From an uncultured Ignavibacteriales bacterium (lineage in GTDB: Bacteria; Zixibacteria; MSB-5A5; GN15; JAAZOE01), in NCBI GenBank assembly GCA_964611355.1, contig CAZSYD010000006.1:1-64000 (forward strand): a stretch of DNA of 64,000 nucleotides. Direction: 5' to 3'. The position numbers are program-made. Below, piece after piece: positions 39,001-45,000 of this stretch; within the stretch, counting starts at the first letter, position 1; each line of letters starts with the position of its first letter.

Positions 39001-42000
39001 AATGACGGTGGACCTGTCCGAACAATGGCTGGTCAGTTGTAATCAGAGTGGGTGGGGCTGCGATGGCGGATGGTTCGCTCATGATTATCATCAATGGAGA
39101 ACCGACCCCTGTGATAGCACGGGCGCGGTGCTGGAAGCAGATTTTCCTTATGCAGCCAGCGATCTCCCCTGCAACTGTCCCTACCAGCATCAGTTCCTGA
39201 TAAATTCGTGGGCTTTTATTGGAAATCCCTCGAGTATACCGGCCATAAGCGCGATGAAGCAGGCTATTCTGGATTATGGCCCGATAACCGTTGCCGTGGC
39301 GGCCAATTCGGCGATGCAGGCTTATACCGGTGGAATCTTCAACGGATGCGATGCTATTGAAATTAATCATGCGGTTGTCCTTGTCGGCTGGGATGATACC
39401 CAGAGCGAGAGCGGCATCTGGATCATGCGCAACTCCTGGGGATCGGGCTGGGGCGAACAGGGTTATATGCGGATGCCATACGGCTGTTCGGAGATCGGCT
39501 ATGGCGCCTGTTATATCGACTACGCCGGAACCAGAGGACTTACCTTTGACTACCCGAACGGCGTTCCCATAACCGTCTCCCCTGATCAAACAACCTCGTT
39601 CGAAGTAATGGTGAGCGGGCTCGGTATCGGAGAGCCGGTCGCCGGAAGCGGCCAATTGCATTACTCGATAAACGGCGCGGCTTTCCAGGCCGAACCAATG
39701 ACCGAAATCTCGGTCAATCACTATGAAGCTGTTCTGCCTGCAGTTACCTGTAGTCTTGAGGTAAAATTTTACGTCAGCGCGGAGGAAGCCTCAACCGGTT
39801 TGCATTATGATCCCGACCCGGCGTCGCCGCACTGGGCGATTTCGGCGCGCGAGGCTTTTACCGTTTTGGAGGATGATTTCGAAACCGATAAAGGTTGGAC
39901 TGTTTCCGGCGATGCCGCCGACGGCCAGTGGGACCGAGGCGTACCGGTTGGCGGCGGTGATCGGGGCGATCCCGCAACCGATTTTGACGGCTCCGGATCA
40001 TGCCGCCTGACCGATAATGTGGACGGCGATTCTGACGTTGATAACGGAACCACTATCCTCGATTCACCTGTTTTTGATTTAACTGGATATGACGGCATAA
40101 TTCATTATGCCCGCTGGTACTCTAATAATTACGGCGCCGCGCCTAACAGCGACGAGATGAAAATATATATATCGAGCAATGGCGGAACATCGTGGACATT
40201 AGTCGAAACCGTCGGACCGACCGAACAGGCCGCGGGAGGCTGGTATGAAACGATATTCCTCGCCGGTGACTTTATTACTCCTACCGGTCAGATGCGGCTC
40301 CGCTTTGAGGCTTCCGATCTTGGAGATGGATCGGTCGTCGAGGCGGCCGTCGATGCCGTTTATGTAATTGCCTATTCCTGCGGCACGGCGCCGGACCCGC
40401 TGACAATCGTCACGGCAACCCTGCCCGGCTGGACGGCCGGCCATCCCTTCTCGCAGACCCTCGAAGCCGTTGGCGGAGTGGGTGAGTATACCTGGATGGA
40501 TAAAAATAACGACCTTTATGGTACCGGTCTTACACTGTCGCCCGATGGTGTTCTTTCCGGTTCGCCTCTCTCGCCGGGGCTTATCTCGTTTACGGCAATA
40601 GTCACCGATCAACAACCGGATACGGATGAAAAACAGTTCGGCTTTTACATAAATGACGCCATATCTATTATGACCTTGTCTTTGCCGGATTGGACGGTTG
40701 GTATTCCCTATGAGCAGCAGCTTGAAGCCGGCGGCGGAACCGGCAATAAGGTCTGGAGCGACAAAGGAGGCGATCTGACCGGAACGGGACTGAATCTTTC
40801 TTCGCAAGGCATCTTGTCGGGTACACCTTTGACGGCGGGCCCGCTTGAGTTTATTGCCGAAGTCGCAGATCAGGTCGGCGCAACATCCGAGAGGCTTTTC
40901 AATATAACCTTGAATCCCCCCGTAAATATAACCACCGAGTCGCTTCCATCGTGCAACCTTCGAATCGCATACTCTTTCCAGATCGAAGCTACCGGCGGTA
41001 CAGGGACGCGAAGATTTACAGACCGCGACGGCGTTCTGGAAGGAACGGGCCTGACTCTGTCCGAGGATGGACTCCTGTCCGGAGAAGCGACCGTGACCGA
41101 TACATTAGATCTGATTATCCATGTTGAAGACGATCCCGGCAGTTTTGAAGAAGAATCTTTCGGTTTTGAAGTTATTCGTCCTTATGTCTGTGGCGACGCC
41201 AACAATGACGGCAGTATCAATGTCGGCGACGCTGTATTTCTGAACAATCATGTCTTTTTGGACGGGCCGCCGCCTGAGTTCCCCGAAGCGGGCGACTCCA
41301 ATGCCGACGGCAGCATAAATATCGCCGATTCCGTTTACTTGGTCAATTTCATCTTTAACGATGGTGAGCCCCCGCGCTGTCCTTGAATGATAATGACGCG
41401 CCGATTTGATTCGACTACCGGTGTATACCTCGGATAAAATCTCTTATCTCCGGAACGCCTCCCTGGAAAATCAGGTATCCGTCGTACGGTTCCCTCTCCG
41501 TGATATCGTCGCATATCGGCGTTAGCATTATTTCTTTTACTTTTTCCAGATCGTCGGTCTGTCCCAACGCCCAGCCCAGCTTGATATAGGCCACCTCGGG
41601 CAGCATGTTATCGGCAGCGATAATGCCGCGGCTCATCAGGTCGCGACCGGTGTCGTAAACAAACATATGGACATATCCCCAGAGGGTCTGGACGGTCATA
41701 TAGATCGCGACTCCGGCTTTGGTGGCCCTATCAATAGCCGGATAGACCTGTTTGTTGACATGCCCCAAGCCGGTACCCGCAATGACAATACCCCGGTACC
41801 CGTTCTCAACCAGCGAGTTGATAATGTCGGGATTCATGTTGGGATAATAATAGACGAGAGCTACTCTTTCTTCGAAATATGGAAGGACAGTAACGTTTCT
41901 GTCTTTTCGGCGGCGACTATAATTTTTTTGAATCGGGGTAATCTTTTCGCGGTCAACCATGGCCAAAGGAATATCGCCGATAGTCCTGAAAGTGGATCGG

Positions 42001-45000
42001 TACGACGAATGCATCTTGCGCACCCTTGTTCCCCTGTGCAGCAGGCCGTATTCATCGGAGGTCGGCCCGAACATACAGACCATTACTTCAGCGATGTCGG
42101 CTTCGGCGGCGACCTTGCAGGCGTGCATCAAATTCAAAGCCGCATCCGACGAGGGTCGATCCGACGAACGTTGGGAACCGACCAGTACAATCGGAACCGG
42201 CGGGTTTTGTATCATAAAAGTCAGGGCCGAAGCCGTATGGTGCATGGTATCGGTGCCGTGCCCGATAATAATACCGTCGATTCCTTTTTCTATTTCCCGC
42301 CCGATGGCTCTGGCCAGGGGAATATACTGCTTCGGCCCCATGTTTTCGCTGAAAACGGCAAACAGTTTTTCCGTGGATAAATTACAAATATCGGCCAGCT
42401 CCGGAACCGCGCCATACAATTCACCGGGAGAAAAAGCGGGAATAACCGCTCCCGTGCGATAATCAAGCCGCGAGGCAATTGTTCCGCCAGTACCGAACAG
42501 TTTAACGTTCGGCTTATCGTCCGAAACGGGGAATTCCTTCTCGGGAATCTTGTAATGAGCTTCCTTATAACCGCACTCTTTCATATCGATAATCGTCTCA
42601 ATGGCGACACCGATGTTGTAACCGTTGGCCAGTTTGAGAACGATATGGCGGTCGTCGTCATTTTCGGCGCGCGGAAGAATAATTCCCTTGAAATCACCCC
42701 TGGTTGATTTGATATGCGTATCGCTCCAGACCCGCACGCTGAATTTCTTCAGCGCTGAAAGAGCCTCGCCTTTATATCCTTTGAACATATCAGTCATGGT
42801 CATTCCCCTTTTCGACGATACCTTTCAGCTCTGAAAGCGGCATATTCCCGATTGTCGTGCCGCGAAGCTGACCCATTATCCAGTCGGTTTCGGCATCGGG
42901 GCGTTTTGACGTATTAATCTCACTAAATTTCTTTTTAAGGACGGGGATATTCGAAATTATTTCTTTTTTGGAGACTTTTCTATACCCGATCGCCGTCAGA
43001 ACGGAATCAAACGCCATTTGAGGATAACTGCAAAGCGTCGGCAGCATTTCTTTGGCTGCCGTTTTCTCCAGGCCTCGTGAACGAATAAACTTAAACAGCC
43101 CGTATATGGTATAATAGTTAAACTTCGCCGCAGGCGTCACCCGCGATTCGATATGTCTGAGATTATGCCCGAACAGAGTCCCGACGAACTTCGGCGATTG
43201 ATCGAAATCATCGATGATCTTCTGGATTATCCAGACCAGGTTTCGCTTTAGAAGGTAGCCATGTGTGTCTTCGGGTATTTCCCACTCTTTTAGTTGCGCC
43301 AGTCGATAATCAATCGCCTGCGGCAGATGTTGTCGTATTTTTTCTATATCCGCATCCTCGATTGGAATCGGCGCGGAATCGGTATCGGGATACATGCGGT
43401 CGGCGCCGGGGAGGACCCGTTCAAAGATGGTGGTGCCGTCCGGAAACGATTTTCTTGTTTCATTCGGAACGCCGGTAAAAGCCATCCGGCAACGTTCCTC
43501 AATCGTTTCGAGGGCTGTTTCCATATCCTCGGAAGGCCCCCAAACGATTATCTGAGCATCATCGTGGCCGGCGTTTAATTTTTCCCTGATGGCATCCCAT
43601 CCATTCTGATCCAAAAACGGCGCTTTCTTTTCCGGCGTGTCTTCATCAAACGGGAATAATTCCGAATGCGTCATGTTTGGTTTTTCGATACAGGCAATAA
43701 CTTTCAAACGATCGCTCAACTCGTTGGCAAACGTCTTTCCCGGCTGCGTGAAAAACGACACGATACCGCCAAACTTCGGGAGATTTACGGCTGCCAGACG
43801 ACGCTTATTCAAGCGCGCTTCCCGGATAAATCCATATCCGTTACGAAGAAGGTTCCGTTCAATATCAATGGCGTTTATCTTCCAGGAAGGAGCATCTTTT
43901 ATTCTTTCGTTCAGGATATTCCTGATCTCCAGCAAAGCCTTCTGACGAAAGGCCTCGTTATGCACCAGTTCCGGTATCCATTTAATGTGCGCGACTCCTT
44001 TGATTTCGACCCGGTCGCCTCCGTCGATACTGACGTTGACATCCTGCCGGGCGGCGCCGATCCCGGTCCGGACTTTGCCGGTGCTCCGAGCCAGATAACG
44101 AAGATAATGACCCGCCTCGGCCGCCTCATCGGGAGTTAGCATGTCGGGATAAGTGATCATTTCGATAAGCGGTATCCCCAGGCGGTCGGTAGTATAAATC
44201 CTCCAATGCCCAGTGTCGGACACTTCCCGGCAGGCATCCTCTTCTATATTAAGCTGAATTATTCGGATATTTTTATTTTTAAGAGGTATCTCCCCTTCTA
44301 TCCCGACAATGGCCGTTCGTTGAAACCCGGTCGGAATCGAACCGTCGAGATACTGTTTTCTGGTGATATGCAATTCTCCGACGATGTTGGTTTTGAGAAG
44401 CAGGGAGATTTCAACGGCGATATCAAGCGCCTCGCGGTTGATAGAAAACGGCGGCGTATCATCAATATCATAAGTACACGCCGATTCGTCCTTGATCCGG
44501 TAGATGATATTCTTTTTGGTCTTGAATTCCATCAAGGCGGTGCCGTCATACTCGCCAAGTTCGCTGAGAGTGGGGCGCATATGCCGAACGACCTCGGCAT
44601 CGTAGTCATTACCATCCTGATACAGCCCTGCAGGACAGCGGCAGAACAGCTTTTTCGCCGTTTTTAATTGTTGATGAATCTCAATGCCGCATTTGAAACC
44701 GAGCTGGCAATAGATTTCCGGGCCTGCGTTATGACGAGAAACGTAACCTATTTTTCGTTTAGTCTGCTCGTAATTGTCCCGGGGATTAACCTGCCGCATC
44801 ATTATTTGTCCTGGGCCATGCCGCCTATACTTACCCTCGATGAGCCTGCTCTGCCGTTTTGAGATAGAAGGTAAGAGAAATATTCACCCATATCAAGCCT
44901 TTTTAGGAATCATATCGTTGCATATCATTGATATTTGCGTATGGATATCATCAATTGGTTTGATGAAGTAAATTAATATCTAATGCATTTTTTGATTGAC

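What a model noticed while it worked through the whole genome (the two positions that open the first line are those of the whole stretch)
41415..44802. Archaeal-type GatDE amidotransferase in a bacterium that also has GlnRS, AsnRS and GatCAB
g00461-g00460 encode a full gatE-gatD pair, the heterodimeric Glu-tRNA(Gln) amidotransferase that reviews give as confined to Archaea. It is intact and kept in about two thirds of sampled Zixibacteria. Yet here and in every relative tested it stands beside GlnRS and/or GatCAB, so it is never the sole route to Gln-tRNA(Gln). It must act on bacterial-type tRNA(Gln) (U1-A72) as a back-up, or have another substrate.
Evidence so far: ncbifam.tsv: g00460 matches the GatD equivalogs TIGR02153/NF003217 (E 1e-154, model cover 0.99) and g00461 the GatE equivalogs NF003107/TIGR00134 (E 3e-148, cover 0.97). 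The best Swiss-Prot hits are all archaeal: GatD is 48% identical to Methanothermobacter GatD and GatE 35% to M. jannaschii GatE. GatD keeps TGGT(103) and HGTDT(180). TIGR02153 scores over its cut-off (about 500 against 324 bits) in 48 of 71 sampled Zixibacteria genomes, 31 of 50 genera, one copy each; among 14 control genomes it rings in 7 and is over the cut-off in 4, and the list holds four archaea. The same genome has GlnRS g00745, GluRS g00746, AsnRS g00426 and GatA/B/C g00721/g00724/g00910. Both tRNA-Gln genes have U1 p [...]
(Added by a program. Inside this text positions count along the whole contig: contig position 1 is position 1 of the stretch shown here. "Call 12" and the like, gene names such as g00115 and contig names such as C1 are that model's own, and its searches are not shown. 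The text may have been shortened before it was handed on; [...] marks where a part breaks off. The agent that wrote the report below was given it as the finding of a first reader that could run no searches.)

Follow-up and report, generated by a model that had tools for sequence, protein, structure and literature searches.

The report
Archaeal-type GatDE amidotransferase spread among bacteria
This bacterium carries an intact two-gene enzyme for making glutamine on its tRNA that textbooks give as unique to archaea; the same gene pair turns out to be widespread in several bacterial phyla, always beside the ordinary bacterial routes.

Summary
Window 42790-44802 (-) is gatE and 41415-42803 (-) is gatD. 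They overlap by 14 nt, and both score above NCBIfam equivalog cut-offs. Catalytic residues are intact.

The genome also has GlnRS, one bacterial GluRS, AsnRS, AspRS, GatC/A/B, two AsnB and two GlnA. Both tRNA-Gln genes are U1-A72.

New here: the pair is not special to Zixibacteria.
- GatD is over cut-off in 103 of 151 Zixibacteria, 13 of 301 Bacteroidota, 23 of 201 Planctomycetota and 40 of 201 Acidobacteriota genomes.
- It is also in 6 of 30 species of the genus of the isolate Clostridium tagluense A121.
- Bacterial GatD forms one clade with short inner branches that mixes phyla. I read this as one archaeal origin followed by bacterial horizontal spread.

In no usable genome is GatDE the only route to Gln-tRNA(Gln).

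Most likely it is still a Glu-tRNA(Gln) amidotransferase used as an accessory route. A changed substrate stays open, because the tRNA-binding half of this GatE is strongly remodelled.

The reviews I read call GatDE archaea-only, and my literature searches found no paper on a bacterial one.

The parts
42790..44802 (-). gatE: tRNA-dependent kinase/amidotransferase subunit, 670 aa (P0002)
   Evidence: NF003107 492 bits against cut-off 456; TIGR00134 422 against 320. Aligns to archaeal GatE 2d6f_C over residues 33-589 and to 1zq1_C over 31-633. The Mg ligands His15/Glu157/Glu184 of the M. thermautotrophicus enzyme (passage in PMC2330236) correspond to H43/E187/E214. These three are invariant in 65 of 65 full-length bacterial GatE.
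41415..42803 (-). gatD: asparaginase-like glutaminase subunit, 462 aa (P0001)
   Evidence: TIGR02153 512 bits against cut-off 324. Pfam finds GatD_N, Asparaginase and Asparaginase_C. Best solved relative is 2d6f_A, E 6e-119. T105 is kept in 80 of 81 rows (the other is a gap in a cut sequence). T184, D185 and K263 are kept in 81 of 81.
42790..42803 (-). 14-nt overlap of the gatE stop with the gatD start (one operon)
   Evidence: ORF coordinates. The same gatE-then-gatD order is seen in 73 of 80 bacterial loci, the other 7 being cut by contig ends. It is also seen in 9 archaeal metagenome loci.

Best explanation
The two genes encode a working heterodimer-type tRNA-dependent amidotransferase of archaeal descent.

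Inferred mechanism, by homology:
1. GatE binds Glu-tRNA(Gln) and phosphorylates the glutamyl side chain with ATP/Mg (H43, E187, E214).
2. GatD frees ammonia from Gln or Asn (T105; T184-D185-K263).
3. The ammonia is passed to GatE, which makes Gln-tRNA(Gln).

Inferred history:
- The cassette entered bacteria from an archaeon.
- It then spread as a self-contained two-gene unit among mostly anaerobic sediment and digester lineages, Zixibacteria above all.

In this genome it is not the essential route, since GlnRS and GatCAB are present. It is an accessory route that turns any Glu-tRNA(Gln) made by the single GluRS into Gln-tRNA(Gln), here on a U1-A72 tRNA.

Shown: gene integrity, family membership, conserved catalytic residues, distribution, one bacterial clade.
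Inferred: the substrate, the accessory role, and the direction and number of transfers.
For: Family membership:
- Both proteins score over their equivalog cut-offs.
- Both align along nearly their full length to solved archaeal GatDE.

Conservation:
- Catalytic residues are invariant across 80 bacterial GatD and 65 GatE.
- GatD is 69-80% identical between this genome and 11 other Zixibacteria, where GluRS is only 48-55%. That points to strong purifying selection.
- gatE and gatD stay adjacent in 73 of 80 loci.
- The two gene trees show the same groups.

Substrate:
- The acceptor-end loop of GatE keeps the archaeal form, RSTGKVRTGIG here against RSTGKVRRGLG in the nearest archaea. That loop lies beside base pair 1-72 according to a passage in PMC2811023.
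- AsnRS is present in 151 of 151 genomes, so Asn-tRNA synthesis gives no need for GatDE.
- The single GluRS type of this phylum must mischarge tRNA(Gln) in the 24 genomes that lack GlnRS and rely on GatCAB. A source of Glu-tRNA(Gln) in close relatives is therefore plausible.

Origin:
- The bacterial GatD clade has SH-aLRT 100, a stem of 0.58 and inner branches of 0.05-0.2, against about 1 among archaea.
- Distribution is patchy: 13/301, 23/201, 40/201 and 6/30.
Against: Never the sole route:
- 0 of 151 Zixibacteria use it alone.
- 0 of 48 usable genomes among 50 other carriers use it alone.
- The two apparent exceptions, G168 and G173, lack even a GluRS cross-hit and GatA, so they are incomplete.

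Association runs the wrong way for a substitute:
- GatD is found in 95 of 127 Zixibacteria with GlnRS, but in only 8 of 24 without it. These are hand tallies, and related genomes are not independent.
- Among genomes with GlnRS, GatD and GatB are spread independently of each other (51/44/15/17). There is no sign that at least one amidotransferase is required.

The Clostridium genus:
- In the genus of C. tagluense, 0 of 30 species have GatB and 24 of 30 have no amidotransferase at all.
- There the cassette was gained by cells that already manage without one.

tRNA recognition:
- Host tRNA(Gln) is U1-A72, not the A1-U72 that archaeal GatDE recognises (passages).
- The helical and tail domains of this GatE are only 13-15% identical to the nearest archaeal ones.
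- The tail is not found by Pfam or by a PDB sequence search.

No archaeal-type GluRS partner was found. Activity is untested.
Confidence: 0.5

Rival explanations
1. Same chemistry, new target. The bacterial GatDE, at least the 'type 1' form present here, has been retargeted to another aminoacyl-tRNA or tRNA-like substrate. Alternatively it works only under special conditions, such as Gln starvation with Asn as amide donor. Either way it would not be a plain second route to Gln-tRNA(Gln).
For: - It is never the sole route, it is linked positively with GlnRS, and it was gained in a Clostridium genus with no amidotransferase at all.
- Type 1 GatE sits on a long stem of 0.92 with SH-aLRT 100.
- Its helical and tail domains are 17% and 13% identical to type 2, and 15% and 14% to the nearest archaea. 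The catalytic cradle stays at 48-65%.
- By profile comparison the type 1 C-terminal half matches the archaeal one at only 95% probability (E 3e-8, 18% identity). Type 2 matches at 99.7% (E 1.5e-26).
- The tail motif MG.VMK.vRGkIDG is replaced by WIMGQLRk.A.GN.
- M. thermautotrophicus GatDE uses Asn nearly as well as Gln (passage in PMC2330236).
Against: - The catalytic cradle and the acceptor-end loop are conserved.
- No candidate alternative tRNA or partner gene is linked. No gene family is shared by more than 11 of 80 loci, and that one is an antisense ORF. No tRNA gene recurs in the 60 loci scanned. No Rfam element lies upstream in the window or in 6 loci.
- This genome has two glutamine synthetases, so it is not a Gln auxotroph.
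- Remodelling of the tail may simply fit the bacterial tRNA(Gln) body.
Confidence: 0.3
2. It serves as an Asp-tRNA(Asn) amidotransferase, giving tRNA-dependent asparagine synthesis. That is what GatCAB does in Deinococcus and Thermus, which also have GlnRS and AsnRS.
For: - GatB was not found in 44 of 103 Zixibacteria that carry GatD, nor in 33 of 50 other carriers.
- The redundancy pattern recalls the bacteria named in the abstract of PMC4206432 (listing).
Against: - AsnRS is present in 151 of 151 genomes (148 over cut-off), and two AsnB are present in this genome.
- The GatE insertion domain is retained here: the alignment to 2d6f_C spans it, and GAD is detected in type 2. Modelling says this domain clashes with AspRS (passage in PMC2330236).
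- Archaeal GatDE rejects Asp-tRNA(Asn) (same paper).
Confidence: 0.07
3. Artefact or relic: either an archaeal contig binned into a bacterial genome, or a decaying gene pair without function.
For: The genome is a draft of 110 contigs. The best Swiss-Prot-type relatives are archaeal.
Against: - The flanks on the same contig are bacterial: OmpA, dockerin proteases and DUF5916.
- GC content equals the genome's.
- The pair is on single-contig genomes of relatives (G045, G100, G034, G137, G085).
- It is also in an isolate, C. tagluense A121, between DegV, a chemotaxis receptor and a pullulanase.
- Frames are open and catalytic residues invariant.
Confidence: 0.02

Closest known systems
Archaeal GatDE (M. 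thermautotrophicus 2D6F, P. abyssi 1ZQ1)
   Same: - Same two subunits, and the same gene order as the nearest archaeal loci.
- Equivalog-level scores.
- The Mg ligands of GatE and the Thr / Thr-Asp-Lys residues of GatD are kept.
- The positively charged loop next to base pair 1-72 is kept.

   Different: - The host is a bacterium with GlnRS, GatCAB, a bacterial GluRS and U1-A72 tRNA(Gln).
- Archaea have no GlnRS, have A1-U72, and have an ND-GluRS that binds GatDE (passages in PMC2330236 and PMC9499178).
- GatE has a 30-residue N-terminal extension, and its helical and tail domains are strongly diverged.
Bacterial GatCAB
   Same: Same overall reaction. GatE is a paralogue of GatB: the GatB_N domain scores 170 bits. 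Both must deal with U1-A72 tRNA(Gln) in this cell.
   Different: - The glutaminase is of asparaginase type (GatD), not the amidase GatA, and there is no GatC.
- GatB models score 58-140 bits against cut-offs of 315-680.
- GatE has a short basic loop where bacterial GatB has the 3-10 turn that reads U1-A72 (passage in PMC2811023).
Bacteria that keep an amidotransferase beside GlnRS and AsnRS (Deinococcus, Thermus, Bdellovibrio)
   Same: An apparently redundant tRNA-dependent amidotransferase kept in a cell that has both direct synthetases (abstract of PMC4206432 in the listing).
   Different: There the enzyme is GatCAB, and its role is Asn synthesis through a second AspRS. Here the enzyme is GatDE, AsnB is present, and only one bacterial AspRS was found.
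Type I L-asparaginase
   Same: The GatD core is homologous: TIGR00519 scores 384 bits, and asparaginase structures match at E 1e-39 to 1e-31.
   Different: GatD has the GatD_N domain, scores higher on the GatD equivalogs, and is translationally coupled to gatE.

Membership tests
GatDE (Glu-tRNA(Gln) amidotransferase, heterodimer type) | GatD matches the curated GatD equivalog models above cut-off | tested here: met
   TIGR02153 512 bits against 324; NF003217 511 against 310.
GatDE | GatE matches the curated GatE equivalog models above cut-off and is not a GatB | tested here: met
   NF003107 492 bits against 456; TIGR00134 422 against 320. All six GatB models score far below their cut-offs.
GatDE | GatD catalytic residues: nucleophile Thr plus the Thr-Asp-Lys triad of asparaginases | tested here: met
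   T105 (TGGT), T184 and D185 (HGTDT) and K263 (VRKMH) are kept in 80-81 of 81 rows. My assignment of the motifs to the triad rests on a passage in PMC2330236 and on recalled asparaginase knowledge.
GatDE | GatE Mg-binding His/Glu/Glu (His15, Glu157, Glu184 of M. thermautotrophicus) | tested here: met
   They align to H43, E187 and E214 in the printed alignment to 2d6f_C. All three are invariant in 65 of 65 bacterial GatE.
GatDE | GatE-specific insertion (AspRS-like / GAD) domain inside the cradle | tested here: inconclusive
   The alignment to 2d6f_C and 1zq1_C runs through residues 300-440. Pfam GAD reaches only E 0.17 here. In the three other bacterial GatE scanned it reaches E 5e-6 (27.1 bits against cut-off 23.4), 0.0075 and 0.085. 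No structure model could be made.
GatDE | YqeY-like helical/tail domain of GatE that reads the tRNA D-loop | tested here: inconclusive
   Pfam GatB_Yqey is not detected in this GatE. It scores 38 bits in an Aminicenantes GatE. The last 136 residues have no PDB sequence match. By profile-profile comparison the C-terminal half matches that of the nearest archaea at 95% probability, E 3e-8, 18% identity.
GatDE | gatE and gatD encoded together | tested here: met
   14-nt overlap here. They are adjacent in 73 of 80 bacterial loci and in 9 archaeal loci.
GatDE | Substrate tRNA(Gln) with an A1-U72 first pair | tested here: not met
   Both tRNA-Gln genes of this genome are U1-A72. The identity rule comes from passages in PMC2330236 and PMC9499178.
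GatDE | Is the cell's only route to Gln-tRNA(Gln) (no GlnRS), with an archaeal ND-GluRS partner | tested here: not met
   GlnRS scores 790 bits and GatCAB is present. The only GluRS is of bacterial type, and no further GlxRS-like match was found.
GatDE | Transamidation of Glu-tRNA(Gln); alpha2-beta2 assembly with an ammonia tunnel | not testable with these tools
   There is no assay.

The most novel reading that the evidence does not exclude
A large bacterial branch of GatDE, spread by horizontal transfer among anaerobic bacteria that already have GlnRS, has been put to a use other than routine Gln-tRNA(Gln) supply. One possibility is conditional synthesis or repair of Gln-tRNA(Gln) with Asn or ammonia as donor when Gln runs short. 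Another is action on a different aminoacyl-tRNA. The remodelled tRNA-binding half of type 1 GatE would mark the change of target.
Probability: 0.3. Interest if true: 0.8.

Novelty: new variant of a known kind. Interest (0 to 1): 0.62.

Why it matters
GatDE is taught as an archaeal signature protein. It is also used in arguments about how LUCA and the two prokaryotic domains made Gln-tRNA.

A monophyletic, well-conserved bacterial clade means three things:
1. The "archaea-only" statement needs correcting. The clade is over cut-off in 68% of sampled Zixibacteria and 4-20% of three other phyla, and it is present in a cultured Clostridium.
2. GatD and GatE are unsafe as archaeal markers in metagenomes.
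3. Nature has already adapted GatDE to cells whose tRNA(Gln) is U1-A72. That gives a ready system to test what really sets first-base-pair and D-loop recognition.

Why cells with GlnRS keep it is an open and testable question about redundancy and fidelity in aminoacyl-tRNA synthesis. C. tagluense A121 offers a cultured host in which to test it.

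Tried and rejected
1. GluRS discrimination marker
- The residue aligned to Arg358 of T. thermophilus GluRS is Arg in all 81 Zixibacteria GluRS I fetched. I recalled Arg358 as the mark of discriminating enzymes.
- That includes the 23 from genomes without GlnRS, which must mischarge tRNA(Gln).
- The marker therefore says nothing here.

2. Convergent GluRS changes in GlnRS-only genomes
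- I made six within-family contrasts.
- Only variable surface-like positions recurred, with no clear signature.

3. Linked clues
- No gene family besides gatE/gatD is shared by more than 11 of 80 loci, and that one is an antisense ORF.
- No tRNA gene recurs in the 60 loci scanned.
- No Rfam family such as a T-box lies upstream in the window or in 6 loci.
- Promoter and terminator scans are at chance level.

4. Carriers
- No GatD match in 72,556 plasmid records at E 1e-30.
- Only three weak partial matches to GatE (25-33% identity over 27-38% of it) in 50,697 phage records.

5. Gln auxotrophy idea
- This genome has two glutamine synthetases.

6. Expression
- No RNA holder was listed for the stretch.

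7. Structure
There is therefore no fold model and no fold search.

8. Careful IQ-TREE run
- The run with bootstraps did not finish in two calls. The tree I cite is the quick one, with SH-aLRT support only.
- Its outgroup, one asparaginase on a branch of 9.4, is too long to trust the root.
- Two candidate "GatDE only" genomes, G168 and G173, were rejected as incomplete.

9. Other
- PMC2366055 (Sheppard and Soll 2008, J Mol Biol) is not held. I could not check whether that paper mentions bacterial homologues.

Full report
**Observation**

The window holds two overlapping minus-strand ORFs at exactly the stated coordinates.
- The downstream one (41415-42803, 462 aa) scores 512 bits on the GatD equivalog TIGR02153 (cut-off 324). 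It has the GatD_N and asparaginase N and C domains.
- The upstream one (42790-44802, 670 aa) scores 492 bits on the GatE equivalog NF003107 (cut-off 456) and 422 on TIGR00134 (cut-off 320). GatB models stay far under their cut-offs.
- The best solved relatives are the archaeal GatDE structures 2d6f and 1zq1.
- GC content of the pair equals that of the genome.
- The flanks are ordinary bacterial genes: a permease, OmpA, and dockerin-bearing secreted proteases.

**The rest of the Gln/Asn charging machinery**

The draft genome has 2.57 Mb in 110 contigs and 96% completeness. It holds:
- GlnRS at 790 bits, next to the single bacterial-type GluRS at 525 bits
- GatA, GatB and GatC
- AsnRS, a bacterial AspRS and two AsnB
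- two glutamine synthetases

No archaeal-type GluRS turned up. ARAGORN finds 40 tRNA genes. Both tRNA-Gln genes are U1-A72. The tRNA-Glu genes start G1-C72 and G1·U72.

**Within the phylum**

I scanned the same 151 genomes for each family:

| Family | Over cut-off |
|---|---|
| GatD | 103 of 151 |
| GlnRS | 126 of 151 (127 matched) |
| GatB | 89 of 151 (90 matched) |
| AsnRS | 148 of 151 (151 matched) |
| GluRS | 148 of 151 |

I tallied the tables by hand, counting GlnRS and GatB by match:

| GatD | GlnRS | GatB | Genomes |
|---|---|---|---|
| + | + | + | 51 |
| + | + | - | 44 |
| + | - | + | 8 |
| - | - | + | 16 |
| - | + | + | 15 |
| - | + | - | 17 |
| any | - | - | 0 |

- GatDE is therefore never the only route. 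Every genome without GlnRS has GatB.
- GatD is commoner with GlnRS (95 of 127) than without it (8 of 24).
- Among genomes with GlnRS, GatD and GatB are spread independently of each other.
- These genomes are related, so I give the counts without a test.

**Beyond the phylum**

- The best 80 loci all carry bacterial titles. They include Phycisphaerae, Aminicenantes, Bacteroidales, Ignavibacteria/Kapaibacterium, Krumholzibacteriia, Fermentibacteria/Aegiribacteria, Cloacimonetes, Caldithrix and the isolate Clostridium tagluense A121.
- Some titles of third-party co-assemblies are wrong. Three such genomes have the same contig coordinates as Zixibacteria of my phylum sample (against 27, 28).
- All 80 loci encode GatD at 58-86% identity to ours. 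In 73 of them GatE lies directly upstream; the other 7 are cut by contig ends.
- In samples centred on a carrier, GatD is over cut-off in 13 of 301 Bacteroidota, 23 of 201 Planctomycetota, 40 of 201 Acidobacteriota and 6 of 30 species of the C. tagluense genus. Each count includes the centre genome.
- Among 14 control genomes only the four archaea pass.

**Other routes in those carriers**

- Of 50 carrier genomes reached through the loci, 48 have GlnRS (47 over cut-off) and 17 have GatB (16 over cut-off).
- The two without GlnRS (G168, G173) give no match at all to the GlnRS model, not even the usual GluRS cross-hit, and no GatA. I treat them as incomplete.
- In the C. tagluense genus no species has GatB (0 of 30). 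There GatDE sits in a lineage whose relatives live with GlnRS alone.

**Phylogeny**

- Among representatives at 50% identity, the nearest proteins outside the bacterial group are 44-47% identical. Where named, they are archaeal: Sigynarchaeota, Nitrososphaerota, Thermococcus, Bathyarchaeia, Thermoplasmatota, Methanosarcina, Desulfurococcaceae and Ranarchaeia.
- In a quick IQ-TREE of 74 GatD rows, the 38 bacterial and unlabelled bacterial-like rows form one clade. It has SH-aLRT 100, a stem of 0.58 and inner branches of 0.05-0.2, against about 1 among archaea.
- Zixibacteria are not one group within that clade. Bacteroidales and C. tagluense sit among them.
- A FastTree of 127 rows put a group holding the Sigynarchaeota protein next to the bacterial clade. 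The IQ-TREE left that unresolved. Its root rests on one very long asparaginase branch, so the donor is not settled.
- The careful run with bootstraps did not finish.
- Nine metagenome loci with the nearest archaeal GatD have the same gatE-gatD order. Their GatD is 47-55% identical to ours. The flanks I scanned in four of them (L216, L217, L239, L254) include archaeal ribosomal protein L2, TFIIB and Elp3. Those of L215, the Sigynarchaeota-like locus, gave no family match, and the other four were not scanned.
- The GatE tree separates bacteria from these nine (SH-aLRT 100) and repeats the GatD groupings. The two genes therefore travel together.
- I read this as descent from archaeal GatDE followed by horizontal spread among bacteria. 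Vertical inheritance with many losses fits the short branches and mixed phyla poorly.

**State of the proteins**

- The GatD residues T105, T184, D185 and K263, and the GatE residues H43, E187 and E214, are invariant in 80-81 of 81 and 65 of 65 sequences. The GatE residues are the equivalents of His15, Glu157 and Glu184 of the M. thermautotrophicus enzyme.
- GatD is 69-80% identical between this genome and 11 other Zixibacteria, where GluRS is 48-55%.
- GatE falls into two bacterial types.
  - Type 1 includes this genome, other Zixibacteria, Bacteroidales and C. tagluense. It sits on a stem of 0.92.
  - Against type 2 its cradle is 55-65% identical, but its helical and tail domains only 17% and 13%.
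- The C-terminal half of type 2 matches the archaeal one at 99.7% probability. That of type 1 matches at 95%.
- Pfam does not see the YqeY-like tail in this GatE.
- The basic loop beside base pair 1-72 keeps the archaeal form. Most bacteria have Thr where archaea have Arg or Lys.

**Function**

- Chemistry and family point to Glu-tRNA(Gln) amidation.
- The comparative pattern (never alone, linked with GlnRS, gained in a genus with no amidotransferase) says it is an accessory, not a necessity. It keeps a changed or conditional role open.
- Two attempts to read from GluRS sequences whether Glu-tRNA(Gln) is made failed.
- No linked gene, tRNA, leader RNA, plasmid or phage copy gives a further clue.

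**Literature**

- The abstract of PMC2811023, seen in a listing, says GatDE "occurs exclusively in archaea".
- Passages of PMC2330236 call it an archaeal signature protein.
- A passage of PMC9499178 (2022) says it is now found only in archaea.
- Full-text searches found nothing on a bacterial GatDE. The terms were GatDE with Zixibacteria; GatDE with horizontal transfer; GatDE with bacterial phylum names; phrases such as "bacterial GatDE"; all GatDE papers since 2012; and gatD/gatE with bacterial.
- Only listings were seen for most of those papers, and subscription journals are not covered.
- Public databases already name these bacterial proteins GatD.

**Limits**

- Activity, substrate and assembly are untested, and no fold model could be made.
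- Prevalence figures are samples.
- Tree support is SH-aLRT from a short search.
- Several organism labels are unreliable.

Noticed in passing
genome contig C91:3804-3879 (outside the window): tRNA-Glu(CTC) is drawn with a G1·U72 wobble first pair and an A discriminator base. tRNA-Glu(TTC) has G1-C72. A weak first pair on a tRNA-Glu is odd, given that amidotransferases read this pair.
   Followed up: no
genome contig C10:54817-59540 (outside the window): A glutamine synthetase gene lies directly upstream of gatA, with gatB further on: glnA 54817-55815, gatA 55894-57288, gatB 58116-59540.
   Followed up: no
genome contig C11:14205-17331 (outside the window): GlnRS and the single GluRS are adjacent on the same strand.
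   Followed up: no
window 38594-41386, 45666-47819, 54372-57767: The gatED pair is flanked by large secreted proteins with dockerin domains: papain-like peptidase C1 + dockerin, cohesin + dockerin, and peptidase C10 + dockerin. This hints at a cellulosome-like protease assembly.
   Followed up: no
L140, L149-L153, L155 (GluRS of genomes G030, G011, G012, G020, G025, G027, G046): Seven GlnRS-less genomes in two genera of the phylum share a distinct GluRS type. The motif at the Arg358 region reads ..LIQPRIEKFSQI.., and the HMM score is about 465 bits against about 520-570 in the rest.
   Followed up: partly
L065 and L089 (two contigs of one Aminicenantes-labelled MAG): One assembly holds two GatD copies, each 72% identical to ours. 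This could be a duplication, two strains or a binning effect.
   Followed up: no
L072, L074, L082, L089; protein P0123: Open frames of 832-949 aa run from inside gatE into gatD, and a 943-aa database protein has GatD at residues 490-943. In L074 a separate full GatE frame also exists, so these look like gene-calling artefacts rather than fusions.
   Followed up: partly
L058, L069, L083 (record titles): Third-party co-assembly records are titled 'uncultured Ignavibacteriales', 'uncultured Ignavibacteria' and 'uncultured bacterium'. Their contig coordinates are the same as those of Zixibacteria genomes G141, G018 and G029 of the phylum sample, so the two taxon names are wrong. The third title names no taxon.
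   Followed up: partly
genome-wide: A tRNA-SeC(TCA) gene is present. tRNA-Asn, tRNA-Cys and tRNA-Ile were not found among the 40 tRNA genes of this draft.
   Followed up: no
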